DNA of 64,000 nucleotides from a virus (Duplodnaviria; Heunggongvirae; Uroviricota; Caudoviricetes): IMG/VR virus record IMGVR_UViG_3300027608_000020. The stretch is one strand, 5' to 3'. The notes beneath the pieces are model-generated. The model saw only the letters and a list, made by a program, of their open reading frames with translations. It ran no database searches and was not told the DNA's origin. The first letter of the stretch is position 1, and each line of letters begins with the position of its first letter. The translations under genes were made by a program, and so were the position numbers. Below are positions 495 to 22,483 of this stretch, piece after piece.

Positions 495-804
495 ACTTAG
501 AGACTTTCATAGAGGGTGGTTCATTGGCAACTTTGATCCTGCCGTATTAAAAACAGAAAATATAGAAGTTGGGGTACTAACACATCTTAAAGGTGAGCAG
601 TGGCCAAAGCATTATCATGCCATTGCTACCGAATACAATGTATTAGTAAAAGGCCTAATGAGGGTCAACGGAGAAACATTAGTCGAAGGTGACGTGTTTA
701 TATTTGAACCAGGCGAACCAGCCGATCCGGAATTTTTAGAAGACTGTATTGTTGTGTGCGTCAAATCACCCAGTCTACCAGGAGACAAATATGAAGTTCT
801 TTAG
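481..804 (+). CDS. cupin-domain protein
   Basis: 107 aa; HYH...E...G...GD...G..P cupin-2 motif pattern; overlaps neighbours by a few codons (operon-like). Confidence 0.6.
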   Translation: MKKHKLRDFHRGWFIGNFDPAVLKTENIEVGVLTHLKGEQWPKHYHAIATEYNVLVKGLMRVNGETLVEGDVFIFEPGEPADPEFLEDCIVVCVKSPSLPGDKYEVL

Positions 805-1984
805 AACAAGAAATGAAATAGATTTAAACAAATATTATATAGCAACTTTTGAAATGAAGTCTGCTTCTACACTTAAAGATGCCGCATGGAACCTAGCTAT
901 TGGACAAAGTGTAGGTAATCCCAATGTACGTAACGAATGGGAAACCGACGAGCTGTTTGAAAACCATAGTTGTATTATTGTAGGTGACGAAGATTGGTTA
1001 GAAAATAATGTAGTGGGAAATGTTGAAATTGCATTCCCTGTAGCTAATACAGACTGGGATACTGATGGTATCAGTCACATGCTTTGCCAATTAATGGGCG
1101 GACACGTCGACATTGATATTATTACTAAATGTCGTTTGATAAAATTAGAGTTGCCCAAAACAGTAACTGACCATTTCCTTGGACCTAAGTTTGGTTTAAG
1201 CGGGTTCCGTGAGTTTACAGGACAATATAATAAGCCGTTGCTCGGTAGTATTGTTAAGCCTAAAATTGGCATTACTCCTGAAGTATTGCTAGAGATGGTT
1301 AAACAAATGGTAGACGGTGGGGTTGATTTTATCAAAGAAGATGAAATTATGAGTAACCCTGCGTGTGCCCCATTAGATCGCAGAGTAGACATCATTGCCA
1401 ACTACCTTGCTAAACAAAGTCGTAAGGTTGTGTTCTGTCATACCATTAATGCAGACCCGCATGTTATTGTAGATCGTGTAAATCGTGTACACGAACTAGG
1501 AGGCAACGGTGTACATATTAATGTGTTCAGCGGACTTGGTGTTTATAACAGTATTCGTAAAATGAATCTACCTTTGTTCCTGCATTTTCAAAAATCTGGT
1601 GATAAAGTGTTCACAGATAAAAATCATAGGTTTAGCATAGCTTGGACTGTGATTTGTCAATTAGCAACAATGATGGGTGTAGACACCATACAAACTGGAA
1701 TGATGGGCGGATATAGTAACGACGACCCTGAAGAAATTAAACAATGCCTTGAAATACTACGGGCAGGAAATACCACTCCTGCATTGAGTTGCGGATTTCA
1801 TCCTGGACTTGTAGAAAAAATTAATTCACTTGCGGGTACGGACTATCTTGCTAACGCAGGAGGGGCTGTACACGGTCACCCTGGCGGAACTATTGCAGGT
1901 GCGGGTGCAATGCGACAAGCCATAAATAGAGAATATAGCGTTGAATATCATCAGGCTATCTCTAAATGGGGTCTTATTACATAA
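791..1984 (+). CDS. RuBisCO large-subunit-like protein (RLP/RbcL family)
   Basis: RBS GGAGA 8 nt upstream of ATG 791; KPLLGSIVKPKIGIT (cf. RbcL KPKLGLS lysine loop), GGVDFIKEDE (cf. GGLDFTKDDE), C-terminal GGAVHGHPGG (cf. GGGTLGHPWG). Confidence 0.8.
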   Translation: MKFFRTRNEIDLNKYYIATFEMKSASTLKDAAWNLAIGQSVGNPNVRNEWETDELFENHSCIIVGDEDWLENNVVGNVEIAFPVANTDWDTDGISHMLCQLMGGHVDIDIITKCRLIKLELPKTVTDHFLGPKFGLSGFREFTGQYNKPLLGSIVKPKIGITPEVLLEMVKQMVDGGVDFIKEDEIMSNPACAPLDRRVDIIANYLAKQSRKVVFCHTINADPHVIVDRVNRVHELGGNGVHINVFSGLGVYNSIRKMNLPLFLHFQKSGDKVFTDKNHRFSIAWTVICQLATMMGVDTIQTGMMGGYSNDDPEEIKQCLEILRAGNTTPALSCGFHPGLVEKINSLAGTDYLANAGGAVHGHPGGTIAGAGAMRQAINREYSVEYHQAISKWGLIT

Positions 1985-4015: not shown

Positions 4016-4090
4016 GCCGTTGTAGTCCTCTGGGAGGGCACTGGATTGTCTATCCAATTAAGGCGGGTTCGATTCCCGTCGACGGCGCCA
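4016..4090 (+). tRNA. tRNA-like, Asp(GTC)-like, atypical (weak D stem, U37)
   Basis: 7-bp acceptor gccgttg/cgacggc, T-arm gcggg-ttcgatt-cccgt, loop ttGTCta; likely a degenerate duplicate of the canonical Asp at 4746. Confidence 0.45.
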
Positions 4091-4097
4091 ATTTTAT

Positions 4098-4173
4098 TCC
4101 CCAGTAGCACAGCGGTAGTTGCACTTGACTGTTAATCAAGGTGTCGGTAGTTCGATCCTACCCTGGGGAGCCA
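4098..4173 (+). tRNA. tRNA-Asn(GTT)
   Basis: anticodon arm cttga-ctGTTaa-tcaag; acceptor tccccag/ctgggga; CCA. Confidence 0.75.
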
Positions 4174-4253
4174 ATTAATAAACATATTAGACGTCTGGCT
4201 AGTCCTTGGAGGCTAGTGGAATGTAGTTCTCCGGGCTAGTATGTTTTTTAATT

Positions 4254-4329
4254 GGGCTGGTAGTGATACTGGGGTACACGGGGCACTTGCAATGCTCAGA
4301 TTGGAGTTCGATCCTCCACCGGTCCACCA
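4254..4329 (+). tRNA. tRNA-Ala(TGC)
   Basis: loop ctTGCaa; G3:U70 pair in the acceptor stem (Ala identity); CCA. Confidence 0.7.
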
Positions 4330-4336
4330 AGTTAAT

Positions 4337-4422
4337 GGATAGTTGTGCGCTGGGCGCAAGCTGGTTTGCTAAACCGGTCTATTGTGAAAACGGTAACAGT
4401 TCGATTCTGTATCTATCCACCA
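4337..4422 (+). tRNA. tRNA-Ser(GCT), class II
   Basis: anticodon arm ctggt-ttGCTaa-accgg; long variable arm; CCA. Confidence 0.65.
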
Positions 4423-4428
4423 GTTTGT

Positions 4429-4504
4429 TGCGGGTAAGGTCTGGTCACTACTCCGGTCTCATAAGCCAGGAGCATCGTTGGTTCGAATCCAACACCCGCT
4501 ACCA
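4429..4504 (+). tRNA. tRNA-Met or Ile2 (CAT)
   Basis: loop ctCATaa; T-arm gttgg-ttcgaat-ccaac; 1:72 U.U mismatch; CCA. Confidence 0.6.
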
Positions 4505-4509
4505 ATTTT

Positions 4510-4569
4510 AGGATCAGTTCAGCAAACTTAAAAACTTTTTTATTATTCAAAAAAACCAAAGTTGATCCT
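4510..4569. repeat. array spacer hairpin, copy 1 (TTTTAGG-atca-GTTCAGCAAA...tgat-CCTGTTGTATTT)
   Basis: 7-bp stem aggatca/tgatcct enclosing an AT-rich loop; flanks conserved with the other copies. Confidence 0.6.
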
Positions 4570-4578
4570 GTTGTATTT

Positions 4579-4652
4579 CCTCTTGTAGTTAAATGGTATA
4601 ACAGTCGGCTGATAACCGGCCATTACAAGTTCGATTCTTGTCGAGAGGACCA
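4579..4652 (+). tRNA. tRNA-Ile(GAT)
   Basis: anticodon arm gtcgg-ctGATaa-ccggc; CCA. Confidence 0.75.
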
Positions 4653-4660
4653 ATTTTTAT

Positions 4661-4738
4661 GTAGGTGTGGCGGAGTGGCCCAACGCAACGGTCTGCAAAA
4701 TCGTAAAACCGTCAGTTCAAATCTGACCACCTACTCCA
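4661..4738 (+). tRNA. tRNA-Cys(GCA)
   Basis: anticodon arm acggt-ctGCAaa-atcgt; T-arm gtcag-ttcaaat-ctgac; acceptor gtaggtg/cacctac; CCA. Confidence 0.65.
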
Positions 4739-4745
4739 AGTTAAT

Positions 4746-4822
4746 GCTCCGGTAGTGTAGCGGTTTATCACGCAACCCTGTCACGGTTGAGGTCACGGGT
4801 TCGATTCCCGTCCGGGGCGCCA
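4746..4822 (+). tRNA. tRNA-Asp(GTC)
   Basis: caacc-ctGTCac-ggttg; close to E. coli tRNA-Asp; CCA. Confidence 0.8.
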
Positions 4823-4827
4823 GTTTT

Positions 4828-4877
4828 AGGATCAGTTCAGCAAACTTAAGCAACTTTCTTTTATCCAGAAACTAAAA
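4828..4877. repeat. array spacer hairpin, copy 2
   Basis: same motif and same stem (aggatca/tgatcct) as copy 1. Confidence 0.6.
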
Positions 4878-4897
4878 AGTTGATCCTGTTGTATTTT

Positions 4898-4972
4898 ACT
4901 CACGTCGTCTAGTGGCTAGGACGCTACCCTTTCAAGGTGGAGAAGCGGGATCGATACCCGTCGTGAGTACCA
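4898..4972 (+). tRNA. tRNA-Glu(TTC)
   Basis: ctacc-ctTTCaa-ggtgg; TCGTCTAG D region as in bacterial tRNA-Glu; CCA. Confidence 0.7.
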
Positions 4973-4978
4973 ATTTTT

Positions 4979-5052
4979 GCCCTTTTAGTTAAATGGTATA
5001 ACAACTGTTTTGTAATCAGTAATTGGCAGTTCGATTCTGTCATGGGGCACCA
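4979..5052 (+). tRNA. tRNA-Thr(TGT)
   Basis: loop ttTGTaa; acceptor gcccttt/atggggc; CCA. Confidence 0.6.
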
Positions 5053-5058
5053 ATTTAT

Positions 5059-5133
5059 GTATCCTTAGTGTTAACGGCAGCACGACAGTCTCCAAAACTG
5101 CTAGTGGGAGTTCAAATCTCTCAGGGTACGCCA
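5059..5133 (+). tRNA. tRNA-Trp(CCA)
   Basis: agtCTCCAAAactg as in E. coli tRNA-Trp; T-arm gggag-ttcaaat-ctctc; CCA. Confidence 0.75.
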
Positions 5134-5138
5134 TTTTT

Positions 5139-5193
5139 AGGTTGCGTTCAGCAAATTCAAAAATTCAACTTTTAATTGAAAAATAAGCAACCT
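5139..5193. repeat. array spacer hairpin, copy 3 (covarying stem aggttgc/gcaacct)
   Basis: same flanks TTTTAGG...GTTCAGCAAA...CCTGTTATTTT with compensatory changes in the 4 inner stem pairs. Confidence 0.6.
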
Positions 5194-5203
5194 GTTATTT
5201 TGT

Positions 5204-5277
5204 TGGGGCATTGTGTAATGGTAGCACAACAGACTTTGACTCTGTTAGTTTAGGTTCGATCCCTAATGCCCCTGCCA
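5204..5277 (+). tRNA. tRNA-Gln(TTG)
   Basis: acaga-ctTTGac-tctgt; weak 1:72 pair and G73 as in bacterial tRNA-Gln; CCA. Confidence 0.75.
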
Positions 5278-5284
5278 GTTTTAT

Positions 5285-5360
5285 CTCTCTTTCGGTTAGC
5301 GGCTATGCCACCTGGTTTGGGGCCAGGATTTCGTGGGTTCGAGTCCCACAGGAGAGACCA
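5285..5360 (+). tRNA. tRNA-Pro(TGG)-like, atypical D-arm
   Basis: cctgg-ttTGGgg-ccagg; T-arm gtggg-ttcgagt-cccac; D region does not fold canonically; canonical Pro(TGG) at 10540. Confidence 0.5.
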
Positions 5361-5368
5361 AGTTCTAT

Positions 5369-5444
5369 GGTGTTAGTAGTGTAGTGGTCTGCACATTGCT
5401 CTGTGAAAGCGATAGTATGGGATCGTTCCCCATCTAACACCCCA
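5369..5444 (+). tRNA. tRNA-His(GTG) with encoded G-1
   Basis: ttgct-ctGTGaa-agcga; extra 5' G opposite C73; CCA. Confidence 0.75.
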
Positions 5445-5455
5445 ATAAGTTTTAT

Positions 5456-5531
5456 GCCAAGATAGCTCATCAGGTAGAGCACCAGTTTGAAGCATTGGGT
5501 GTGGTTGGTTCGAGTCCAACTCTTGGTACCA
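5456..5531 (+). tRNA. tRNA-Phe(GAA)
   Basis: ccagt-ttGAAgc-attgg; GATAGCTCA D region; CCA. Confidence 0.75.
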
Positions 5532-5536
5532 GTTTT

Positions 5537-5647
5537 AGGATAGGTTCAGCAAATAACTTAACTACTTCTCTTGAAAAGAAAAGGAACGGTTCGACTCCGT
5601 AGCCGCAAGGTTTGGTGTAACGGTAGCACTATGTTAAAAACTATCCT
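5537..5647. repeat. array spacer hairpin, copy 4 (stem aggatag/ctatcct), enlarged loop carrying a tRNA T-arm-like fragment
   Basis: TTTTAGGATAGGTTCAGCAAA...CTATCCTGTTATTTT; loop includes ggaacGGTTCGACTCCgt and a D-arm-like tggtgtaacggtagcac that do not assemble into a cloverleaf. Confidence 0.5.
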
Positions 5648-5668
5648 GTTATTTTAAAAGGAAATCAA

Positions 5669-5797
5669 ATGGCAAATGTCAAAAAAGGTAACCTAACAGC
5701 GCCTCCACAATGGTGGAAGCATTTGAAAGATTGGAAACGAGTGTTCTGGAAATCAGAACGCCAAGCACAGAAACGTAACATTAAACAAGGAGAATGA
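5669..5797 (+). CDS. small basic hypothetical protein (42 aa) inside the tRNA array
   Basis: AAAGGAAA RBS then ATG; MANVKKGNLTAPPQWWKHLKDWKRVFWKSERQAQKRNIKQGE. Confidence 0.25.
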   Translation: MANVKKGNLTAPPQWWKHLKDWKRVFWKSERQAQKRNIKQGE

Positions 5798-5883
5798 CAT
5801 GAAACGTTCAGGTAAACGATAGTGTCATCCTAGACCCCCGTATGGTCCTGGATGGCACGTGAAAGACAATTCTTTACGATCCA

Positions 5884-5959
5884 TCCACAGCTGGCGTTAA
5901 CGGTAGCGTACTCGGCTCTTAACCGATGAGGTGTCAGTTCAAATCTGACGCTGTGGACC
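5884..5959 (+). tRNA. tRNA-Lys(CTT)
   Basis: tcgg-ctCTTaa-ccga; acceptor ccacagc/gctgtgg; T-arm gtcag-ttcaaat-ctgac; CCA. Confidence 0.6.
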
Positions 5960-5962
5960 ATA

Positions 5963-6036
5963 TGGGGGTAAAACTTTAAGGTGAAGTACCGGACTTTTAA
6001 TCCGGCTAACTCGGATCGTTACCGAGTACCCCTACC
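5963..6036 (+). tRNA. tRNA-Lys(TTT)
   Basis: ccgga-ctTTTaa-tccgg; acceptor gggggta/tacccct; CCA. Confidence 0.75.
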
Positions 6037-6113
6037 ATATAAAAACACACTGGTCTACCGCCACCGAGAGGTAGTTAAAGACAATGACAAGCAACAGCCA
6101 GTGTGTTTCTATA
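6037..6113. repeat. long hairpin H1 (about 19-bp stem tATAAAAACACACTGG / CCAGTGTGTTTCTATa enclosing about 43 nt)
   Basis: near-perfect inverted repeat starting right at the CCA of tRNA-Lys(TTT). Confidence 0.6.
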
Positions 6114-6118
6114 TGGTG

Positions 6119-6192
6119 ACTATATAAAAACACGCTCGCGGCTCCCGGGGCTGGGGGTACGTTGTACGACTACCCTAGAGTGTGTTTCTATA
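6119..6192. repeat. long hairpin H2 (ctATATAAAAACACgctc / gagtGTGTTTCTATATgg), tandem to H1
   Basis: second inverted repeat of the same sequence family with a GC-rich loop; ends at the 5' end of the next tRNA. Confidence 0.55.
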
Positions 6193-6268
6193 TGGTAACG
6201 TAGCATAGTGGCTAATGCACCACCTTCATACGGTGTTTATCGTGAGTTCGAGTCTCACCGTTACTACC
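6193..6268 (+). tRNA. tRNA-Met or Ile2 (CAT)
   Basis: cacc-ttCATac-ggtg; T-arm gtgag-ttcgagt-ctcac; CCA. Confidence 0.65.
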
Positions 6269-6273
6269 AATTT

Positions 6274-6349
6274 TGCCCCTTTCGTATAATGGATAATACA
6301 CTAGGCTACGAACCTGGGAATGGTGGTTCGATTCCATCAGGGGGCACCA
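6274..6349 (+). tRNA. tRNA-Arg(ACG)
   Basis: ctagg-ctACGaa-cctgg; D stem gtat/atac; CCA. Confidence 0.75.
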
Positions 6350-6582
6350 AGTTTTGTAAGTGTCAGCAAGTGAAGTCACGCTGTCTAGGTTTCTTCGAAG
6401 GACCAAAGCAGTAAAAGGCAAATGGGTTCAACTCCCACCCGCGGGGAACTGCGGAGGTCCGTAACGGGGACTACGCTGGATGGATCCCAAGTGATATCCA
6501 TCGTGCTCGAGGTCAGGCTAGGCGGCCGGTAAGTCCTGAATAAATCTACGATAAATGCGGCGTAGGCTTACAAATTCAATAT

Positions 6583-6658
6583 GTCCCTATCGTCTAGTGG
6601 CCTAGGACACCAGCCTTTCACGTTGGGTACACGAGTTCGAATCTCGTTAGGGACGCCA
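6583..6658 (+). tRNA. tRNA-Glu(TTC), second copy
   Basis: ccagc-ctTTCac-gttgg; TCGTCTAGTGG D region; perfect acceptor gtcccta/tagggac; CCA. Confidence 0.75.
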
Positions 6659-6674
6659 TATATAGGAGTAGATC

Positions 6675-6848
6675 ATGAAAACATTATTTTTTGAAAATGT
6701 CTTTAACAAAGAAAAATTCTATTGTAAAGACACCAAAGACATCCGTGTAATAGACGGCATAGAATATCTACGAGTTTTTAAAGATGGCACACAACGAGAT
6801 TGTCTAGTAAAGAAAGATAGTCTTAGAAAAGTACAAGAAAAGAAATAA
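6675..6848 (+). CDS. small hypothetical protein (57 aa) inside the tRNA array
   Basis: AGGAG RBS 6 nt upstream of ATG; MKTLFFENVFNKEKFYCKDTKDIRVIDGIEYLRVFKDGTQRDCLVKKDSLRKVQEKK. Confidence 0.3.
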   Translation: MKTLFFENVFNKEKFYCKDTKDIRVIDGIEYLRVFKDGTQRDCLVKKDSLRKVQEKK

Positions 6849-6849
6849 T

Positions 6850-6923
6850 GCTTCGGTAGTTTAATGGCAGAACAATGCCGTGACATGGCGTAGATGGGAG
6901 TTCAATTCTCCAACGAAGTACCA
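6850..6923 (+). tRNA. tRNA-Val(GAC)
   Basis: atgcc-gtGACat-ggcgt (cf. E. coli ccttGACatgg); CCA. Confidence 0.65.
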
Positions 6924-6928
6924 ATTAT

Positions 6929-7004
6929 GCGGGTAAGGTGTTTATGGATACACATCAGTCTTCCAAACTGAAGTAGACCGGTTCGATACCGGCTACCCGC
7001 TCCA
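6929..7004 (+). tRNA. tRNA-Gly(TCC)
   Basis: tcagt-ctTCCaa-actga; acceptor gcgggta/tacccgc; CCA. Confidence 0.75.
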
Positions 7005-7005
7005 T

Positions 7006-7094
7006 GGGGGGTTATCGGGGCTGGGCCCTGCGCTGTCTTGAAAACAGATGGACTTTTAACGAGGTTGGAGTTCGATTCTACCATCCCCCCGCCA
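7006..7094 (+). tRNA. tRNA-Ser(TGA), class II (imperfect T stem)
   Basis: ctgt-ctTGAaa-acag as in bacterial tRNA-Ser(UGA); long variable arm; 6-bp G-C acceptor; CCA. Confidence 0.5.
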
Positions 7095-7101
7095 AATTAT
7101 T

Positions 7102-7193
7102 GCCAGCGAGACTTGGAAGTCAGAGAGGTCTTATAAGCCTTTTAGCGCCAGATTAGCGTTCTTGAGAGGGTTCGATCCCCTCCGCTGGTACCA
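7102..7193 (+). tRNA. unusual 92-nt tRNA-like gene (anticodon TAT? plus a second 5-bp/7-nt-loop hairpin in the variable-arm position)
   Basis: perfect acceptor gccagcg/cgctggt, A73-CCA, T-arm gaggg-ttcgatc-ccctc; internal hairpins gaggt-ctTATaa-gcctt and agcgc-cagatta-gcgtt; short D hairpin gact-tgga-agtc. Confidence 0.45.
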
Positions 7194-7202
7194 GTTTTAT
7201 TT

Positions 7203-7277
7203 CCGGCTTTCGTATAATGGAAAATACAATAGGCTTCTACCCTGTGAATAGGAGTTCGATTCTTCTAGGCCGGACCA
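7203..7277 (+). tRNA. tRNA-Arg(TCT)
   Basis: atagg-ctTCTac-cctgt; D stem gtat/atac; CCA. Confidence 0.75.
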
Positions 7278-7286
7278 AGTTTTTAT

Positions 7287-7363
7287 GCCCCGTTACGCTA
7301 ATTGGTAGTGCGGATTCTCTCAAAAGGAGTTGGCTGTCTGTTCGAATCAGACACGGGGTACCA
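7287..7363 (+). tRNA. short-variable-arm tRNA, anticodon CAA (Leu codon UUG); family member 1
   Basis: gccccgt-TACGCTAATTGGTAGTGCGG-attct-ctCAAaa-ggagt-tggct-gtctg-TTCGAAT-cagac-acggggt-A-CCA; 77 nt. Confidence 0.7.
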
Positions 7364-7522
7364 GTTTAGGGATAGACGACACAATGAGTCCCAGATAGTC
7401 TAGCATGGCTTTGGTTGGCCATGTGACACCGCAGACGACTATAAGGTAGTATAAACTCTTGTGTTCGAGACAATCCGATGAGGCTTGCTAACAACAAGAT
7501 AGTCGGGCTCCCGCCTTATAAT

Positions 7523-7599
7523 GCCTTCGTACGCTAATTGGTAGTGCGGCTTGCCTTAGAAGCAGGTGGTTGGGGGTTCGAATCCGCCCGAAGGTACCA
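7523..7599 (+). tRNA. short-variable-arm tRNA, anticodon TAG (Leu codons CUA/CUG); family member 2
   Basis: gccttcg-TACGCTAATTGGTAGTGCGG-cttgc-ctTAGaa-gcagg-tggtt-...TTCGAAT...cgaaggt-A-CCA; 77 nt. Confidence 0.7.
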
Positions 7600-7669
7600 A
7601 ACCAGGATAGTGTGAAAGAGAACTATCGACAGTCCGTCTAGGGCCAATTGGGTGAGAAGCCCATTCAAT

Positions 7670-7746
7670 GCCCCTGTACGCTAATTGGTAGTGCGGATAG
7701 ACTTAAAATCTGTTGGTTGGCGGTTCGAATCTGCCCAGGGGTACCA
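7670..7746 (+). tRNA. short-variable-arm tRNA, anticodon TAA (Leu codons UUA/UUG); family member 3
   Basis: gcccctg-TACGCTAATTGGTAGTGCGG-ataga-ctTAAaa-tctgt-tggtt-ggcgg-TTCGAAT-ctgcc-caggggt-A-CCA; 77 nt. Confidence 0.7.
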
Positions 7747-7803
7747 TTACTTGTCCTGGCCAAGATAATAGAAATAAATAGAATGTTACCAATAAGGCTT
7801 AAC

Positions 7804-8736
7804 ATGAAAAAGAAACTCTGCTTAGTATATCAACTGTTTACAAAGTGCAATATAGGTTGCAAGTATTGTTATAATTATTTTGATCAAGATGTACGTCCTT
7901 TCAATTATTATACATCTAAAGTTGGTAAACTCTTAGAATTATACCATGATGAAACTTGTTTTGTTTTAAATGGTGGTGAGCCCTTGTTGCTTAAAGGATT
8001 TCAACATCTAGTAAATCAAGCGACTGAGAAGGCAAAAACATATACCTATACTAACGGTACTCTAAGCACATGGCACTATAAGAGATTTATTGATAGTCTT
8101 GAGCACAAAGACAAGTTTTACATGACAATCAGTTTACACTTTATGGAAGTGCTAAGAGATAACAAGTTACCGGACAAATACTTTAAAAATATTGAACTTT
8201 TTGCTAAGAATATTCCCAACTTAAAAATCAACCTAGTAGTTGATGAAGAGTTTCAAGGTGAATACTTGCAAGTGATTAGACAAACTATGAGAGAAATTAA
8301 ACAAAGAACTTCTCTTAAGAATGTTAATATTTTGATTGCAGATCACATGTATGAAGATGAATTTAAACTATTACGTGTGTTAAATCAAGATTTTATTGAC
8401 TTTGTTGAAGAAATTGACAGTAATTTTGCTTATAAAAATTGCATGTGGGACAATACCAGACAATCATTAACAGAAATGATTAAAGACATAAAAGAAAATA
8501 TTGTGCTAAAGTTAGCCGGAAAGGATTTTAAGATTCCGTATGAATATGAATTTGGACAAATATTTTTTCTAGAAAGTCCCGAAGGAATGATTGTTCAGGA
8601 ATTTTTCGGTGAAGGACGTCAAGAACATAAAATACCGTTTGATCAATTTGACGCATTTGTTGAAGATATCAAACCAAAAGTACAAAGCAAGCCTCTTAGA
8701 AAAATTACAACATTATCCTCTGTTGGAATAATCTAA
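7804..8736 (+). CDS. radical SAM domain protein (possible QueE-like)
   Basis: CNIGCKYC (CxxxCxxC) near the N-terminus and FVLNGGEPLL SAM-binding motif; start moved to ATG 7804 (TAAGG RBS) because the ORF-track 5' extension overlaps tRNA 7670..7746; no SPASM Cys cluster. Confidence 0.7.
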   Translation: MKKKLCLVYQLFTKCNIGCKYCYNYFDQDVRPFNYYTSKVGKLLELYHDETCFVLNGGEPLLLKGFQHLVNQATEKAKTYTYTNGTLSTWHYKRFIDSLEHKDKFYMTISLHFMEVLRDNKLPDKYFKNIELFAKNIPNLKINLVVDEEFQGEYLQVIRQTMREIKQRTSLKNVNILIADHMYEDEFKLLRVLNQDFIDFVEEIDSNFAYKNCMWDNTRQSLTEMIKDIKENIVLKLAGKDFKIPYEYEFGQIFFLESPEGMIVQEFFGEGRQEHKIPFDQFDAFVEDIKPKVQSKPLRKITTLSSVGII

Positions 8737-8910
8737 TCACAAATTATTGATAAAGCGAAGTGCTTTGTTGACGTTGGTAAAATATCGCACAGTTAGTTCT
8801 ATATCGTAGATATCTCGAACCATAACGATGCAGACACCCTCATGTAATGATAGATGAAAGTGTAATCCTCCGGGGGTAACGCTTTCGTATGTCTTCATAC
8901 AAATATTTAC

Positions 8911-8933
8911 CGCTTTCGTACCTAGGGGTACCA
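8911..8933 (+). pseudogene. remnant of a fourth member of the short-arm tRNA family (5' acceptor/D start fused to the 3' acceptor-CCA)
   Basis: cgctTTCGTAC-CtAGGGGTACCA vs gccTTCGTACgc... and ...cAGGGGTACCA of family members 2 and 3. Confidence 0.45.
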
Positions 8934-8939
8934 ATCATT

Positions 8940-9013
8940 GCTCTTATAGTTTAATGGAAGAACACTGTCTTGGTATGACAGGAATCGTAGTTCGATTCTA
9001 CGTTAGAGCACCA
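8940..9013 (+). tRNA. tRNA-Thr(GGT)
   Basis: ctgtc-ttGGTat-gacag; T-arm cgtag-ttcgatt-ctacg; CCA. Confidence 0.7.
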
Positions 9014-9020
9014 AAAGGTA

Positions 9021-9049
9021 TTGACAATAAATTAGATTTACTGTATAAT
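9021..9049 (+). promoter_or_regulatory. sigma70-like promoter TTGACA-17-TATAAT
   Basis: exact consensus; precedes the rpoZ-like gene. Confidence 0.55.
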
Positions 9050-9071
9050 CAATACATAAAGGAATTAAACA

Positions 9072-9311
9072 ATGGCACGTATTACAAGTCAGTTAGCAGT
9101 TGAACAAATTGGTAATAGATACGATCTAGTATTAGTTGCATCTATTCGTGCCCGGGAATTAACACGGGGACACATGCCTTTGGTAAGTAAGAAAGGTGGG
9201 CCAATTGTTACAGCCCTACGAGAAATTGAAGAAGGAAAAATCGGAAAAGATTATTTGTTAAAACTCAAAAAAGACGCAAGTAAAAATTATCGCGGGTTAG
9301 AGAAACGGTAA
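9072..9311 (+). CDS. rpoZ: DNA-directed RNA polymerase omega subunit homologue
   Basis: ARITSQLAVEQIGNRYDLVLVASIRARE...TALREIEEGKI aligns with bacterial RpoZ ([28 protein letters not shown]...IALREIEEGLI); last 21 nt overlap the fMet tRNA. Confidence 0.7.
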   Translation: MARITSQLAVEQIGNRYDLVLVASIRARELTRGHMPLVSKKGGPIVTALREIEEGKIGKDYLLKLKKDASKNYRGLEKR

Positions 9312-9364
9312 CTCACGAGTCTCATAAGCTCGAGATCCTGGTTCGATTCCGGGACCCGCAACCA
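9291..9364 (+). tRNA. initiator tRNA-fMet(CAT)
   Basis: CGCGGG...CCCGCAACCA ends identical to E. coli tRNA-fMet, including the C1.A72 mismatch; loop ctCATaa. Confidence 0.75.
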
Positions 9365-9436
9365 GTTTAGGTTAATTACAGCGATTTAAAAATGGCGACT
9401 GCTAGGTCATTAAACTAGTATTAACCTGTTGAATTT

Positions 9437-9520
9437 TGCCCCGGTGGTGTAATGGTAGCCACGCTGGTCTTAGAAGCCAGTGTCGAAAGGCGTGTCGGTT
9501 CGAGTCCGACCTGGGGCACC
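9437..9520 (+). tRNA. tRNA-Leu(TAG), canonical class II (long variable arm)
   Basis: ctggt-ctTAGaa-gccag; long variable arm; T-arm gtcgg-ttcgagt-ccgac; A73-CCA. Confidence 0.7.
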
Positions 9521-9680
9521 AATAATTGATAGCTCTCGGCAGGTATCGTATATGGACGCATATACTACACGACATCCACTGGCATGGTGCGAAGTCTAAT
9601 ATAACTGCTGTTAGATGCTTTGGAACTGTTAGCGCAGGACTCCTAAATAGACACGTTGTCATAGACGGCGAGTGCTATCA
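9521..9680. repeat. about 160-nt segment bounded by a 13-bp inverted repeat (AATAATTGATAGC / GCTATCAATTATT)
   Basis: exact reverse-complement termini between the tRNA-Leu and tRNA-Ser genes. Confidence 0.5.
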
Positions 9681-9686
9681 ATTATT

Positions 9687-9776
9687 GGTGTGGTCCTATA
9701 ATGGTATTAGAGCAGATTGCTAATCTGTCGGTCGGCGTAATCCGGCTTCTGAGTTCGAGTCTCAGTCACACCGCCA
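9687..9776 (+). tRNA. tRNA-Ser(GCT), class II, second copy
   Basis: gcaga-ttGCTaa-tctgt; long variable arm cggtcggcgtaatccggc; T-arm ctgag-ttcgagt-ctcag; CCA. Confidence 0.65.
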
Positions 9777-9795
9777 ATTTTTTTAAGAGGTAATA

Positions 9796-9981
9796 ATGTA
9801 TATTAAACCAGGTCCTAGTTACAAAATGAGTTCACAAGCAAAGCGATTTGCGGCACAAATCCTTGATCCACATAAGCGTGGAGAGTTTTTACGTAGTACA
9901 GTTCAAGCAGAACTTGCATCGTTGATTAAACCCGTCAGGGAGAAAAAGACTCGTACTGAGTCGGATGTAGGAAGTGATTGA
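9796..9981 (+). CDS. hypothetical protein
   Basis: AAGAGG RBS; 61 aa. Confidence 0.4.
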   Translation: MYIKPGPSYKMSSQAKRFAAQILDPHKRGEFLRSTVQAELASLIKPVREKKTRTESDVGSD

Positions 9982-10214
9982 TGTCTAAAGGAAGTAGACC
10001 TCGTCCATATAGTGTTAGCCAAGAAAAGTTTGGCAATAACTATGATGCAATTTTTGGAAAGAGAAATATGTCACCAAGTGTAGAAGAAATGAAAAAAGGT
10101 ACATGCGGTTGCGGCCGCAGTCCAACTGGTAATTGTTGCGGTTGGCACGGCTTGACAGAAGAACAATATCAAGCTAGACTAGCAGAATATATTGCAGAAA
10201 AAACTGACGAATAA
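9978..10214 (+). CDS. hypothetical Cys-rich small protein
   Basis: GTCGCGRSPTGNCCGWHG cysteine cluster; start overlaps the upstream stop (ATGA). Confidence 0.45.
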   Translation: MMSKGSRPRPYSVSQEKFGNNYDAIFGKRNMSPSVEEMKKGTCGCGRSPTGNCCGWHGLTEEQYQARLAEYIAEKTDE

Positions 10215-10220
10215 GATATT

Positions 10221-10295
10221 GCCTGGTTAGCTCAGGGGTAGAGCAACGCCTTTACACGGCGAAGGTCCGCGGTTCGAAACCGTGACCAGGTACCA
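10221..10295 (+). tRNA. tRNA-Val(TAC)
   Basis: cgcc-ttTACac-ggcg; T-arm cgcgg-ttcgaaa-ccgtg; CCA. Confidence 0.7.
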
Positions 10296-10300
10296 GTAGT

Positions 10301-10549
10301 ATGATAGATTACATTACAACATTTTTTGCAATTTTTTTACTTGACGTTGTGTATACTTACTATCTGCGATGTGTAGCAAATGACAATGTGCTGGGAGCAA
10401 GTTTTTGGTCAGTAGCATGTTATATATTAGGAAGCATAGCAGTTATAAATTATACAACTAACCATTGGTTGATGATTCCGGCAATGGCAGGTGCGTTTTG
10501 CGGAACTTATGTTGGAATGAAAATTAGAAAGAAGAATAACGGTGTGTAG
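10301..10549 (+). CDS. small membrane protein
   Basis: 82 aa with 2-3 hydrophobic segments; 3' end overlaps the next tRNA by about 10 nt. Confidence 0.4.
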   Translation: MIDYITTFFAIFLLDVVYTYYLRCVANDNVLGASFWSVACYILGSIAVINYTTNHWLMIPAMAGAFCGTYVGMKIRKKNNGV

Positions 10550-10616
10550 CTCAGCTTGGTAGAGCTCTGCGTTTGGGACGCAGTGGTCGCATGTTCGAAT
10601 CGTGTCACACCGACCA
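10540..10616 (+). tRNA. tRNA-Pro(TGG)
   Basis: CGGTGTGTAGCTCAGCTTGGTAGAGC...ctgcg-ttTGGga-cgcag... near-identical layout to E. coli tRNA-Pro(UGG); CCA. Confidence 0.8.
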
Positions 10617-19025: not shown

Positions 19026-19379
19026 ATGTCAGACTATCAGTTGGTCTGTTCTTTGATTAAAACTCAAGAACAAGTTGTTTACGATTACACCAAAAATAAA
19101 TGCAGTCTTATATTCACTGTATCCGTAATTAAAAACAAAGTTCGGTCTAAAAAAATCTCCACAGCAGTTTTCAAGTATGATAGAGATAACAAATGGTATC
19201 CGCATCACATTGAAGTATATTCCGGTTACAAACGAACGGGTGTTGCCACGGTGATGTACGACATTGTGCAAAGTGAGATTGACGGAGTACTAGTTCCAAG
19301 CGATGAACAAAGCGATGCGGCCCGAGAGTTTTGGCGTAACAGGTTATTGACAACTCCTCTGAATAAATATATACTGTAG
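19026..19379 (+). CDS. hypothetical protein (possible GNAT-like fold)
   Basis: 117 aa; RTGVATVMYD resembles the GNAT motif A region (weak). Confidence 0.4.
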   Translation: MSDYQLVCSLIKTQEQVVYDYTKNKCSLIFTVSVIKNKVRSKKISTAVFKYDRDNKWYPHHIEVYSGYKRTGVATVMYDIVQSEIDGVLVPSDEQSDAAREFWRNRLLTTPLNKYIL

Positions 19380-19394
19380 GTTATTGCTGTATGA

Positions 19395-19446
19395 AGCAAA
19401 GAGAAAAGTGTTCTGGACGGGGGTGCGAATCCCCCCATCTCCACCA
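19395..19446 (+). ncRNA. ssrA: tmRNA (ssrA) acceptor piece of a permuted two-piece tmRNA gene; 5' boundary uncertain
   Basis: tGGACgggggTGCGAATcccccCATCTCCACCA matches the canonical tmRNA 3' end (GGAC, T-arm, acceptor 3' strand, A73, CCA). Confidence 0.7.
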
Positions 19447-19516
19447 TAAGCATACTAGGTCGTTGAGTTAAAAAGTCGCATGTGATGCGCTCAGACTAAA
19501 ATAGTATGCTTTTGAT

Positions 19517-19722
19517 GGGGATGCATAGTTTCGACAGGGCAACAAGTAAATGAGTGGACAGCTCGGGAAAGCAGAACCCGTAGGATTGGGGTAACTCGGT
19601 CGTAGAAGCACAACACGTAAACGCAAACGACGAACAGTTCGCATTGGCCGCCTAACAGCCGCCTAGGGTAGGAAATACCTCGTAACAGAAACCACCAAGC
19701 CCACTTCGGTGGGCTTTTTTTT
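19517..19722 (+). ncRNA. ssrA: tmRNA coding piece (5' acceptor strand GGGGATG with G3.U70; tag ORF GCAAACGACGAACAGTTCGCATTGGCCGCCTAA = (A)ANDEQFALAA*)
   Basis: GGGGATGCATAGTTTCGACAGGG parallels E. coli GGGGCTGATTCTGGATTCGACGGG; tag 19623..19655 ends in ALAA and stops at UAA; ends at terminator 19697-19722. Confidence 0.7.
19697..19722 (+). terminator. rho-independent terminator (aagcccac-ttcg-gtgggctt plus T8)
   Basis: GC hairpin followed by a T-run. Confidence 0.7.
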
Positions 19723-19754
19723 GACTAAATAGCAGATAACAAGGATAAAATATC

Positions 19755-21466: not shown

Positions 21467-22483
21467 ATGCAAAAAACAATCCTAATTGTTACAGATAATT
21501 TACCGGAGCAGATCAATGGTGTGGTTACAACCTACAAAAATATTGAGGCGTGTGCGGTTCGGGACAACTATCGTGTTGTATATCTTGATCCCAGGAGGTT
21601 CCGCTATGTTGATTGCCCTGGCTACAACGAAGTCAAGATTGCCTTTCCCTGGAAAATGGGCCAGATATTTGAGGAGATCAATCCGGATCATATCCACATC
21701 GCCACAGAGGGTCCTATGGGTTTGTGTGCTAGACAATATCTTGACAAACACGGTTATCGCTACAACACTGCTTATCATACTAAGTTTCCAGAAGGAATTA
21801 GAAAGCTGTTTGGCGTACCTGAGGCCCTTACTTGGCCTTTAGTACGTTGGTTCCACAAACACAGTGGTAAAGTATTAACCACTACAGATTCTATGGTAGC
21901 AGAACTTAAAGAACACGGGTTTGACGGAGAATTAATTTCATGGACTCGCGGAGTCGATCGTGATATATTCAATCCAAGTCAGCGTACAGGCACAGTAGTA
22001 AATGGCCCTATACTAGTATGTGTTAGCCGTGTGAGCAAAGAAAAGAATCTAGAAGCGTTCTTTGAAATGCCCTATGCGGGTGTTAAGTTCATGGTAGGTG
22101 ATGGTCCTATGTTGGAAGAGTACAGAACGCAGTATCCCGATGTAAAGTTTGTGGGTGCCAAGCGTGGTCAAGAACTAGCCAAATACTTTGCCATGGCAGA
22201 TGTATTTGTATTTCCCAGCCGTTGGGAAACATTTGGTATTGTTATGATTGAAGCAATGGCTTGCGGAACTCCTGTTGCCGCATATCCCGTACAAGGACCC
22301 TTGGATGTTATCGAACAGGGAGTAACTGGATTTATGGAAGAAGATTTAGCCACTGCTGTATATCGTTGTATGGGACTTAATAGAGACACAGTATTAGCAG
22401 GTAGCCAGAAATGGTCATGGCAGAGAGCTTGGGAGATATTCCGAGATAATTTAGTAGAAAAAGAAAAATTGGCTGCAAATTAA
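21467..22483 (+). CDS. glycosyltransferase, GT4 (GT-B) family
   Basis: ETFGIVMIEAMACGTPV (E-x7-E region) and the general GT4 layout. Confidence 0.7.
   Translation: MQKTILIVTDNLPEQINGVVTTYKNIEACAVRDNYRVVYLDPRRFRYVDCPGYNEVKIAFPWKMGQIFEEINPDHIHIATEGPMGLCARQYLDKHGYRYNTAYHTKFPEGIRKLFGVPEALTWPLVRWFHKHSGKVLTTTDSMVAELKEHGFDGELISWTRGVDRDIFNPSQRTGTVVNGPILVCVSRVSKEKNLEAFFEMPYAGVKFMVGDGPMLEEYRTQYPDVKFVGAKRGQELAKYFAMADVFVFPSRWETFGIVMIEAMACGTPVAAYPVQGPLDVIEQGVTGFMEEDLATAVYRCMGLNRDTVLAGSQKWSWQRAWEIFRDNLVEKEKLAAN

What the first reader, a model, noticed from the sequence alone, without database searches (positions are those of the whole stretch)
7287..7746. Family of three paralogous short-variable-arm tRNAs reading leucine codons (CAA, TAG, TAA) alongside a canonical long-arm tRNA-Leu
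Three 77-nt tRNAs (7287-7363, 7523-7599, 7670-7746) share an identical 20-nt D-arm TACGCTAATTGGTAGTGCGG, a TTCGAAT T-loop, a 5-nt variable loop (tggct/tggtt) and A73-CCA. They differ by compensatory changes in the acceptor, anticodon and T stems, with anticodons CAA, TAG and TAA, which are all leucine codon readers. Bacterial and phage tRNA-Leu is normally class II with a long variable arm, and a canonical class II tRNA-Leu(TAG) is present at 9437-9520. The family could be class-I-shaped Leu isoacceptors (LeuRS relies mainly on A73 and core elements), or tRNAs charged by a different synthetase that would recode Leu codons. Paralogues that keep one invariant D-arm while the anticodons diverge argue for selection on a shared identity element.
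Basis: seen in the sequence. Interest (0 to 1): 0.8.

Follow-up and report, generated by a model that had tools for sequence, protein, structure and literature searches.

The report
Short-arm leucine tRNAs in a phage
Three phage tRNA genes read leucine codons but lack the long extra arm that textbook bacterial leucine tRNAs carry; they belong to a large, little-described group found in many phages and some bacteria, and they most likely still carry leucine.

Summary
ARAGORN and the Rfam tRNA model call three 77-nt tRNAs at exactly 7287-7363 (CAA), 7523-7599 (UAG) and 7670-7746 (UAA). All three share an identical 20-nt D-arm, a 5-nt variable loop and A73-CCA.

They are not unique. The same D-arm occurs in 109 tRNAs on 76 viral contigs, every one 77 nt with a leucine anticodon. 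The class-I cloverleaf is backed by strong covariation.

Every published bacterial LeuRS determinant is present and invariant: A73, A15-U48, G18G19, A20a and U8-A14, plus C2-G71, which blocks SerRS. LeuRS is known not to need the long arm.

Arm loss in these phage arrays affects Leu only, not Ser or Tyr. UUA/UUG/CUA codons in three conserved phage proteins align mainly with Leu in solved cellular homologues, so recoding is not supported.

The same tRNA shape is already annotated as tRNA-Leu in Vibrio phage KVP40 and in mycobacteriophages. It also occurs in bacterial tRNA arrays and as a conserved chromosomal gene in Bifidobacteriaceae. The literature mentions it only in passing.

Verdict: these are genuine leucine isoacceptors without the long arm, a new member of an annotated but under-studied kind. 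Interest is moderate.

The parts
7287..7363 (+). tRNA-Leu(CAA), 77 nt, with a class-I shape. Acceptor stem GCCCCGU/ACGGGGU with G1.U72; anticodon at 7321-7323; 5-nt variable loop UGGCU at 7331-7335; A73-CCA encoded.
   Evidence: ARAGORN; Rfam RF00005 48.9 bits; sequence. An identical copy is present in 15 other viral loci.
7523..7599 (+). tRNA-Leu(UAG), 77 nt, with a class-I shape. Acceptor stem GCCUUCG/CGAAGGU with G1.U72; anticodon at 7557-7559; variable loop UGGUU at 7567-7571; one G51.G63 mismatch in the T-stem; A73-CCA.
   Evidence: ARAGORN; RF00005 51.8 bits; sequence. An identical copy is present in 2 other loci. The G51.G63 mismatch is shared by 8 of 53 family members.
7670..7746 (+). 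tRNA-Leu(UAA), 77 nt, with a class-I shape. Acceptor stem GCCCCUG/CAGGGGU with G1.U72; anticodon at 7704-7706; variable loop UGGUU at 7714-7718; A73-CCA.
   Evidence: ARAGORN; RF00005 54.9 bits; sequence. An identical copy is present in 4 other loci. It is 78.5-80% identical to the annotated tRNA-Leu of KVP40-like vibriophages.
7294..7313 (+). Shared D-arm 20-mer, copy 1 (U8 A9, 3-bp stem C10-G25/G11-C24/C12-G23, U13.U22, D-loop A14 A15 U16 U17 G18 G19 U20 A20a G21, G26). It holds the LeuRS core determinants.
   Evidence: Exact match with 0 expected by chance. The positions are invariant in 53 distinct family members. The D-loop motif is nearly exclusive to Leu tRNAs.
7530..7549 (+). Shared D-arm 20-mer, copy 2.
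7677..7696 (+). Shared D-arm 20-mer, copy 3.
9438..9521 (+). Canonical class II tRNA-Leu(UAG), 84 nt, with a 13-nt variable region, A73 and C2-G71. It is the long-arm comparator in the same array and duplicates the UAG anticodon.
   Evidence: ARAGORN; RF00005 54.2 bits. It is 82-83% identical to the annotated tRNA-Leu of Pseudomonas phages.

Best explanation
These are three functional leucine isoacceptor tRNAs that have lost the long variable arm. They are most likely transcribed as part of the phage's 30-plus-gene tRNA array and trimmed by host RNase P and 3' processing enzymes; both steps are inferred. The host leucyl-tRNA synthetase then charges them with leucine. It would recognise the discriminator A73 and the tertiary core (U8-A14, the A15-U48 Levitt pair, G18G19 and A20a in a Leu-type D-loop, and the D/T-loop contacts). 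Bacterial LeuRS needs neither the anticodon nor the long arm. The tRNAs then decode UUG (CAA), UUA/UUG (UAA) and CUA, possibly other CUN codons (UAG). These are the Leu codons that this AT-rich phage uses most. Shown here: the genes, the fold, conservation of all identity positions, the restriction of arm loss to Leu, and the unchanged leucine meaning of the codons. Inferred: charging by LeuRS, expression, and the benefit to the phage (codon supply when host tRNAs are limiting).
For: (1) Two independent tRNA finders call them. (2) 109 tRNAs on 76 viral contigs plus the window carry the same D-arm; all have Leu anticodons (CAA 52, UAA 31, UAG 25, CAG 1) and all are 77 nt. (3) On 36 of the 53 distinct sequences the class-I cloverleaf is 96.7% paired, against 27-49% when partners are slid. 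14 of 20 pairs change on both sides, and no shuffle out of 500 reaches the observed score. (4) U8, A14, A15, G18, G19, A20a, U48, U54, U55, C56, A58, A73 and C2-G71 are invariant in all 53. These are the determinants listed for E. coli LeuRS, where the long arm and anticodon are not needed and arm-less minimal tRNALeu is still charged (PMC9976931; PMC2377443). (5) The D-loop AAUUGGUAG occurs in 66 short and 6 long Leu tRNAs but in only 2 of all other isotypes among 1,060 distinct tRNAs. Short and long Leu tRNAs alike have A73 (123/123) and C2-G71 (122/123). (6) Arm loss is Leu-specific: Tyr is 54 long, 7 intermediate and 1 short; Ser is about 161 long with 3 dubious short. This is expected because SerRS depends on the arm. 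(7) Codon meaning: 20 of 39 UUA/UUG/CUA codons in three phage proteins align with Leu in solved cellular homologues, and the next residue, Val, has 5. In the 58%-identical UDP-glucuronate decarboxylase the figure is 12 of 19. (8) Demand matches supply: UUA 34%, CUA 19% and UUG 16% of Leu codons. (9) The same shape is a syntenic core gene in Bifidobacteriaceae, so bacterial translation systems tolerate it. (10) The phage tmRNA is of the betaproteobacterial type, implying a proteobacterial, E. coli-like LeuRS.
Against: No natural short-arm bacterial or phage tRNA-Leu has been shown to be aminoacylated in anything I could find (10 literature searches). Removing the arm from Aquifex tRNALeu lowers affinity, and the C-terminal domain of prokaryotic LeuRS is reported to contact the arm (abstract of PMC3561953), so charging may be less efficient. 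The host is unknown. Expression and processing were not tested. The codon test rests on only 39 codons and would not detect low-level ambiguous decoding. I could not verify whether Bifidobacteriaceae also keep a long-arm tRNA-Leu(CAA).
Confidence: 0.85

Rival explanations
1. The tRNAs carry leucine as above, but the short arm and the sequence-invariant D-arm are themselves an adaptation of mobile tRNA genes. Losing the arm could make tRNA-Leu portable between hosts by removing any risk of cross-charging by SerRS or TyrRS. It could also let the tRNA escape a host nuclease or toxin, or another host factor, that recognises class II tRNA-Leu. This is not exclusive of the best explanation; it adds a reason for the shape.
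For: Short Leu tRNAs are concentrated in phages and multi-tRNA arrays. In the 77 motif-selected sources short Leu tRNAs outnumber long ones, and CAA is almost always short. 46 of 99 cellular loci with a short Leu tRNA hold 3 or more tRNAs. The exact D-arm has 76 viral hits and none in 185,579 species' genomes. The D-stem shows no compensatory change while all other stems covary freely.
Against: The loci were selected for carrying short Leu tRNAs, so the ratios are biased. Cellular tRNA-Leu isoacceptors also keep their D-arms invariant (Aquifex), so D-arm invariance needs no special explanation. Bifidobacteriaceae keep a short tRNA(CAA) as an ordinary chromosomal gene. I did not identify any nuclease directed at tRNA-Leu. 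Simple neutral loss of a dispensable arm explains the data equally well.
Confidence: 0.15
2. These are recoding tRNAs: a synthetase other than LeuRS, from the host or the phage, charges them, so that UUA/UUG/CUA are read as another amino acid in phage proteins.
For: The shape is atypical for bacterial tRNA-Leu, and the field uses the long arm as a diagnostic for Leu identity (PMC6821328). A canonical long-arm tRNA-Leu(UAG) coexists in the array.
Against: The three anticodons share only A35, so a synthetase that reads the anticodon is unlikely. The Ala mark G3.U70 is absent (C3-G70 is invariant). Ser identity needs a long arm and G73, whereas these have a short arm, A73 and the anti-SerRS pair C2-G71. 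There is no G-1 for His. The one BLAST resemblance to a tRNA-Thr was only generic. UUA/UUG/CUA codons align with Leu in cellular homologues; 20/39 exceeds the 31% rate at which the most Leu-like non-Leu class aligns to Leu, p about 0.007. These codons make up about 5% of all codons, so recoding would alter every protein. No ORF in the window is large enough for an aaRS, apart from the 1,943-aa structural protein, and none of those searched resembles one.
Confidence: 0.03
3. These are decayed tRNA-Leu genes or tRNA-like elements with no role in decoding, for example processing signals, decoys or integration sites.
For: Phage tRNA arrays do contain pseudo-tRNAs; KVP40 has an annotated tRNA-Pseudo. 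The UAG member has one T-stem mismatch.
Against: All four stems are maintained by compensatory change across 53 distinct sequences, with invariant U33, A35, T-loop, A73 and CCA. Each isoacceptor has its own orthologue group across many phages. The anticodon set matches the phage's codon usage.
Confidence: 0.03

Closest known systems
Short-variable-loop tRNA-Leu genes already annotated in cultured phages: Vibrio phage KVP40 tRNA-Leu-1 (UUG) and tRNA-Leu-2 (UUA), and Mycobacterium phage EniyanLRS (Wildcat-like) tRNA-Leu(tag) and tRNA-Leu(caa)
   Same: They are 74-77 nt with a 5-nt variable loop, a Leu-type D-loop (AAUUGGCAG in KVP40), A73 and Leu anticodons, and they sit inside phage tRNA arrays. 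KVP40 Leu-2 also has G1.U72. The window's UAA tRNA is 78.5% identical to KVP40 Leu-2 over positions 14-77 without gaps.
   Different: Their D-stems and variable-loop sequences differ. The exact TACGCTAATTGGTAGTGCGG D-arm lineage was found only in uncultured viral contigs, and the CAA tRNA has no BLAST match in the cultured-phage collection.
Canonical bacterial and phage class II tRNA-Leu (E. coli tRNALeu isoacceptors; the window's own 9438-9521)
   Same: They share A73, C2-G71, the 3-bp D-stem, the 9-nt D-loop AAUUGGUAG with A20a, the A15-U48 Levitt pair, and D-arm invariance among isoacceptors.
   Different: The three have no variable stem-loop: 5 nt (UGGNU, a class-I-like G45 G46 pattern) instead of 10-24 nt. 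They have U13.U22 instead of G13/A22.
Engineered minimal E. coli tRNALeu lacking the variable arm (Larkin et al. 2002, as summarised in PMC9976931)
   Same: It is an arm-less tRNALeu that keeps A73 and the D/T-loop tertiary contacts and is still leucylated and edited by E. coli LeuRS. This is the experimental precedent for the proposed mechanism.
   Different: Those are laboratory constructs. The tRNAs here are natural, evolutionarily maintained genes with a complete class-I core.
Animal mitochondrial tRNA-Leu(UUR)
   Same: It is a class-I-shaped tRNA-Leu whose identity rests on A73 and A14 and which is recognised by a LeuRS without a long arm.
   Different: It belongs to an organellar system with its own LeuRS and relaxed tRNA structure. 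It has no sequence relationship to these tRNAs and a different evolutionary context.
Short tRNA-Leu in bacterial genomes: horizontally acquired tRNA clusters in Mycobacterium (PMC6582537), long tRNA arrays in cyanobacteria, and the chromosomal tRNA(CAA) of Bifidobacteriaceae
   Same: They have a short variable loop, a Leu anticodon, the AAUUGGUAG D-loop and A73.
   Different: Their D-stems differ, and most do not encode CCA. The Bifidobacteriaceae gene is a lone, syntenic core gene, not part of an array.
Recoding tRNAs whose body and anticodon are mismatched (nematode nev-tRNAs, PMC3333845; from my own knowledge, Candida tRNA-Ser(CAG))
   Same: In both, the tRNA class and the anticodon do not match textbook expectation.
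   Different: In those cases the body carries the identity of a different amino acid from the one the anticodon implies. Here body identity marks and anticodon both say leucine, and the codon meaning is unchanged.

Membership tests
Substrate of bacterial LeuRS (leucine identity set, E. coli type) | Discriminator base A73 | tested here: met
   A73 is present in all three tRNAs and in 53 of 53 family members. It is also present in 89/89 short and 34/34 long Leu tRNAs in the related loci and in 110/110 further viral short Leu tRNAs. The requirement is taken from PMC9976931.
Substrate of bacterial LeuRS (leucine identity set, E. coli type) | Tertiary core: U8-A14, trans-Levitt pair A15-U48, G18G19 correctly placed, A20a in the D-loop, and G18:U55, G19:C56, U54:A58 | tested here: met
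   All these nucleotides are present and invariant in 53 distinct sequences. The D-loop is letter-for-letter the E. coli tRNALeu D-loop AAUUGGUAG. Whether the tertiary pairs actually form cannot be tested with these tools.
Substrate of bacterial LeuRS (leucine identity set, E. coli type) | Actual aminoacylation with leucine | not testable with these tools
   This needs a charging assay or acylated tRNA sequencing. The indirect test met is that UUA/UUG/CUA codons align with Leu in solved homologues.
Canonical class II (type II) tRNA-Leu | Long variable arm of more than 10 nt forming a stem-loop | tested here: not met
   The variable region is 5 nt (UGGCU or UGGUU), and a total length of 77 nt including CCA leaves no room for an arm. 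The three are therefore not members of the class II structural type, although they share its identity marks.
Natural short-variable-loop tRNA-Leu (as annotated in KVP40, in mycobacteriophages and in bacterial tRNA arrays) | Leu anticodon, a 4-6-nt variable loop, a Leu-type D-loop with the 20a insertion, and A73 | tested here: met
   A structural pattern encoding these features recovered 129 viral and 101 cellular Leu-anticodon tRNAs.
Functional tRNA (not a pseudogene) | Cloverleaf maintained by compensatory substitutions, with conserved U33, T-loop and 3' end | tested here: met
   96.7% of cells are paired, 14 of 20 pairs change on both sides, no shuffle out of 500 reaches the score, and slid controls give 27-49%.
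Recoding tRNA charged by AlaRS, SerRS, HisRS or ThrRS | Identity marks of the other synthetase: G3.U70 (Ala); long arm plus G73 (Ser); G-1 (His); G1-C72/C2-G71 with a GU-containing anticodon (Thr) | tested here: not met
   C3-G70 is invariant. The arm is short, the discriminator is A73, and the anti-SerRS pair C2-G71 is present. Position -1 is U. 1:72 is mostly G.U and the anticodons are NAA or NAG. The tRNA-Thr BLAST hit was only generic similarity.
Recoding tRNA (any synthetase) | Cognate codons occupy positions conserved for a non-standard amino acid | tested here: not met
   Leu is the plurality partner of UUA (11/19), UUG (5/13) and CUA (4/7) in three proteins compared with solved cellular homologues.

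The most novel reading that the evidence does not exclude
Loss of the long arm is not neutral but a recurrent adaptation of mobile (phage and array-borne) leucine tRNAs. On this reading, the arm-less shape with a sequence-locked D-arm insulates the tRNA from host factors that read the class II architecture. Such factors could include mischarging by SerRS or TyrRS in a foreign host, or a nuclease or toxin directed at tRNA-Leu. That would make these tRNAs host-independent replacement parts that keep phage translation running while host tRNA-Leu is attacked or depleted.
Probability: 0.12. Interest if true: 0.6.

Novelty: new member of a known kind. Interest (0 to 1): 0.38.

Why it matters
Textbooks and recent structural papers define bacterial tRNA-Leu as type II, and annotation and genetic-code studies use the long arm as a diagnostic for leucine identity. 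This window belongs to a large natural population of leucine tRNAs that break that rule. I recovered more than 200 in phages, and the shape also occurs in bacterial tRNA arrays and as a core gene in Bifidobacteriaceae.

These tRNAs are a natural confirmation of the in vitro result that bacterial LeuRS ignores the arm. The fact that only Leu, and not Ser or Tyr, loses the arm shows synthetase recognition rules shaping tRNA architecture in the wild. In practice, isotype predictors and code-reassignment pipelines should not treat a short arm as evidence against Leu.

For this particular locus the message is more modest: these are ordinary codon-supply tRNAs in an unusual but already annotated shape.

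Tried and rejected
(1) My first covariation count used a structure string mis-registered by one column. The slide control exposed the error, and one search is the valid result.

(2) Stenotrophomonas and Bacillus phage genes annotated tRNA-Thr matched the UAG tRNA by BLAST. The sequence shows an ordinary tRNA-Thr(UGU) with a standard D-arm, and the similarity is confined to a chance-similar anticodon stem and the generic T-arm. I rejected it as evidence about identity.

(3) I tested linkage to the radical-SAM gene immediately downstream (7804-8736). It is found in only 2 of 76 family loci, so I rejected a functional link.

(4) The spacers between the three tRNAs (7364-7522 and 7600-7669) are conserved in only 3 and 1 related loci and have no Rfam match. 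In other phages the three genes lie 80-83 nt apart, start to start. I do not treat the spacers as functional parts.

(5) U at -1 opposite A73, which could form an eighth acceptor pair, and G1.U72 turned out to be general to the whole array.

(6) I looked for a phage-encoded synthetase. No ORF in the window is large enough for an aaRS, apart from the 1,943-aa structural protein, and none of those I searched resembles one. The rest of the genome is unseen.

(7) The exact D-arm has no match in 185,579 species' genomes, so no host origin was found.

(8) Ten literature searches found no dedicated study. There are only passing mentions (PMC6582537, PMC6933170).

Full report
OBSERVATION

ARAGORN calls tRNA-Leu(caa) 7287-7363, tRNA-Leu(tag) 7523-7599 and tRNA-Leu(taa) 7670-7746, each 77 nt. 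They sit inside an array of 37 tRNA genes and a tmRNA. An 84-nt long-arm tRNA-Leu(tag) lies at 9438-9521. The Rfam general tRNA covariance model scores the three at 48.9-54.9 bits against a gathering score of 29. The 20-mer TACGCTAATTGGTAGTGCGG occurs three times, with none expected even at 3 mismatches. The sequence shows the TTCGAAT T-loops, the 5-nt variable loops UGGCU/UGGUU and A73-CCA. The window is a tailed phage, with baseplate and virion proteins, about 39% G+C, and no close relative among cultured phages.

THE FAMILY BEYOND THE WINDOW

The exact D-arm 20-mer is present in 76 stretches of uncultured viral contigs, often two or three times per contig. ARAGORN on those loci plus the window finds 109 tRNAs carrying it. 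Every one is 77 nt and every one has a leucine anticodon: CAA 52, UAA 31, UAG 25, CAG 1. They collapse to 53 distinct sequences. The same 20-mer has no match in one genome from each of 185,579 bacterial and archaeal species.

Outside the D-arm the three window tRNAs are only 62-72% identical to one another. Each has identical copies in 2-15 other contigs. Identity is higher within an anticodon group (77-81%) than between groups (58-68%). So these are old paralogues, each with its own orthologues, not recent duplicates.

STRUCTURE

On 36 of the 53 distinct sequences, the class-I cloverleaf with a 3-bp D-stem and a 5-nt variable loop is 96.7% paired. 14 of 20 pairs change on both sides, across 158 cells. 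No shuffle out of 500 reaches the observed covariation score, and sliding the 3' partners by 1-3 columns drops pairing to 27-49%. One search was my own mis-registered structure string and should be ignored. The 1:72 pair covaries as G.U, G-C and A-U, so the acceptor stem is an ordinary 7 bp.

IDENTITY

[quoted passage not shown] It also lists C2-G71 as an antideterminant against SerRS.

All of these nucleotides are present in the three tRNAs and invariant in all 53 family members. The 9-nt D-loop AAUUGGUAG is letter for letter that of E. coli tRNALeu. Among 1,060 distinct tRNAs in these phage loci, that D-loop occurs in 66 short and 6 long Leu tRNAs and in only 2 tRNAs of any other isotype. 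Short and long Leu tRNAs alike have A73 (123/123) and C2-G71 (122/123).

D-arm invariance among Leu isoacceptors is itself a known property of cellular tRNALeu sets (Aquifex, PMC2377443). Here the D-arm shows only 9 single substitutions among 62 close relatives and no compensatory pair change, while the other three stems covary freely.

The three anticodons share only A35, so a synthetase that reads the anticodon is unlikely. The marks for Ala (G3.U70), Ser (long arm, G73) and His (G-1) are absent.

ARM LOSS IS LEU-SPECIFIC

In the same phage arrays Tyr tRNAs are 54 long, 7 intermediate and 1 short. Ser tRNAs are about 161 long with 3 dubious short calls. Leu tRNAs are mostly short, for every Leu anticodon. 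Intermediates with 9-nt variable regions exist. This is the pattern expected if the arm is lost only where the cognate synthetase does not need it, since SerRS uses arm size as its major identity element.

TEST OF RECODING

If the tRNAs inserted another amino acid, UUA/UUG/CUA codons in conserved phage proteins would not sit at leucine positions. I compared three phage proteins with experimentally solved cellular homologues:
- the UDP-glucuronate decarboxylase (38015-38992), 58% identical to human UXS1 (2b69);
- the RuBisCO-like protein (749-1984) against 4nas;
- UvdE (39429-40505) against 3tc3.

Leu is the plurality partner of each codon: UUA 11/19, UUG 5/13, CUA 4/7. Pooled, that is 20/39, with Val next at 5. 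In the decarboxylase alone 12 of 19 align to Leu and 17 of 19 to I/L/M/V/F. The 20/39 figure exceeds the highest rate at which any non-Leu residue class aligns to Leu (Met, 31%), p about 0.007. These codons make up about 69% of the phage's Leu codons and about 5% of all codons. No ORF in the window is large enough for an aaRS, apart from the 1,943-aa structural protein, and none of those I searched resembles one. Recoding is therefore not supported.

WHAT IS ALREADY KNOWN

The shape is not new to the databases.
- Vibrio phage KVP40 carries two 77-nt genes annotated tRNA-Leu (UUA and UUG) with a 5-nt variable loop, an AAUUGGCAG D-loop and A73. One also has G1.U72, and 43 related vibriophages match.
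- Mycobacterium phage EniyanLRS has tRNA-Leu(tag) of 75 nt and tRNA-Leu(caa) of 74 nt in the same shape.
- Of the 99 cellular loci, 46 hold three or more tRNAs. These are arrays, some on plasmids or in cyanobacteria, and 53 are lone genes.
- 37 loci from Bifidobacterium, Gardnerella and related genera carry one conserved short tRNA(CAA). For the 35 I oriented, flanking ORFs are found at matching offsets in 25-30 of 34 loci, so it is a vertically inherited core gene.

In the literature I found only passing remarks: a short-loop tRNA-Leu(TAG) in a horizontally acquired Mycobacterium tRNA cluster (PMC6582537), and a survey noting 5-18-nt variable loops in cyanobacterial tRNALeu (PMC6933170). A 2025 structural paper still defines tRNALeu as type II, and a genetic-code study uses lack of the arm as evidence against Leu identity.

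MECHANISM

The best-supported account is that the three tRNAs are leucine isoacceptors made from the phage tRNA array and matured by host enzymes. U at -1 and an encoded CCA are general to the array. Host LeuRS would charge them through A73 and the tertiary core. The host is probably a betaproteobacterium, because the phage tmRNA matches the beta_tmRNA family at 117.9 bits. The tRNAs would then decode UUG, UUA/UUG and CUA (possibly other CUN codons), which are the Leu codons this AT-rich phage prefers.

Shown: the genes, the fold, the identity positions, the Leu-specific arm loss and the unchanged codon meaning. Inferred: expression, charging and the benefit. I put this at 0.85.

Why the arm was lost remains open. 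Neutral loss of a dispensable element explains everything seen. An adaptive reading (portability between hosts, or escape from factors that read the class II shape) is not excluded but has no direct support.

CAVEATS

There are no charging data for any natural short-arm bacterial or phage tRNA-Leu. Deleting the arm lowers affinity for Aquifex LeuRS. The codon test covers only 39 codons. The ratios of short to long tRNAs come from loci selected for having short ones. The rest of the phage genome is unseen.

VERDICT

The leucine-isoacceptor reading and the D-arm inference are supported, and the recoding reading is not. This is a new member, a distinct and widespread uncultured-phage lineage, of a kind already annotated but barely described. 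Interest is moderate. It contradicts a textbook generalisation and a heuristic used in annotation, but the mechanism is what in vitro work predicted decades ago, and equivalent genes have been in GenBank since the KVP40 genome.

Noticed in passing
window 7006-7094 (+): This tRNA folds like tRNA-Sec (Rfam RF01852, 43.2 bits, just under the gathering score of 47). It has a long acceptor stem, a 6-bp D-stem with the 4-nt loop CUGG, a long variable arm and G73-CCA. Its anticodon is UGA (serine codon UCA), not UCA. ARAGORN misses it, and the window has no ordinary tRNA-Ser(UGA). Homologues in 12 related loci keep the UGA anticodon loop while the acceptor and D stems covary. UCA codons align with Ser in 3 of 5 cases. 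From memory it resembles the 'allo-tRNA' and tRNASec-like tRNAs described by Mukai et al. (2017).
   Followed up: partly
window 7102-7193 (+): This is a 92-nt tRNA with a long variable arm (about 24 nt), an atypical short D-arm, G1.U72, A73 and anticodon UAU (AUA codon). ARAGORN calls it tRNA-Ile(tat), and the tRNA-Sec model gives 29.5 bits. It is conserved at 96-100% identity in at least the 12 best of 36 related loci. A class II body with A73 and a non-Leu anticodon recalls the nematode nev-tRNAs that are charged with leucine (PMC3333845). AUA codons align with Ile in 4 of 11 cases and with Leu in 2 of 11, too few to decide.
   Followed up: partly
window 19333-19746 (+): The phage encodes a tmRNA of the betaproteobacterial type (RF01850, 117.9 bits) with tag peptide ANDEQFALAA. 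It also matches the permuted-tmRNA model (119.1 bits). I used it only as a hint to the host.
   Followed up: partly
window 749-1984 (+): This ORF encodes a RuBisCO large-subunit-like protein (Pfam PF00016, 2.9e-35). Its best solved relative is 4nas (deposited as ribulose-bisphosphate carboxylase); RuBisCO-like proteins and 2,3-diketo-5-methylthiopentyl-1-phosphate enolases rank just below. This is an unusual gene for a phage.
   Followed up: partly
window 9072-9311 (+): This 79-aa ORF has an RNA polymerase omega/Rpb6 domain (PF01192, 3.6e-16) and lies inside the tRNA array. Its last 21 bases overlap tRNA-Met at 9291-9364.
   Followed up: no
window 7804-8736 (+): A radical-SAM protein (PF04055, CxxxCxxC near the N-terminus) is encoded immediately after the three Leu tRNAs. 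It is found next to the family in only 2 of 76 related loci, so it is probably not functionally tied to them.
   Followed up: yes
window 38015-38992 (+) and 39429-40505 (+): The phage carries a UDP-glucuronate decarboxylase that is 58% identical to human UXS1 (E 1e-125), next to a UvdE-type UV-damage endonuclease. A family-4 glycosyltransferase lies at 21467-22483.
   Followed up: partly
window 4016-10616, whole tRNA array: G1.U72 wobble pairs close the acceptor stem in at least 10 of the 37 tRNAs (Phe, Lys, Met, two Val, the three short Leu, and the UAU tRNA). Two more have U1.U72. 41 of 53 family members elsewhere also have G1.U72. The reason for this lineage-wide weak first pair is unexplained.
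   Followed up: no
L080-L196, e.g. L080 2724-2798: Bifidobacteriaceae (Bifidobacterium, Gardnerella, Alloscardovia, Bombiscardovia, Pseudoscardovia, Aeriscardovia) carry a conserved, syntenic, lone chromosomal tRNA(CAA) with a 5-nt variable loop, the AAUUGGUAG D-loop and A73. Lone short tRNA(UAA) genes occur in some Alphaproteobacteria and other Actinobacteria. I could not check whether these are the only tRNAs for those codons.
   Followed up: partly
L024 and L058 (viral loci): These loci hold Leu-anticodon tRNAs of 81 nt (CAA and GAG) with about 9-nt variable regions, intermediate between the short and long forms. They are possible steps in arm reduction.
   Followed up: no
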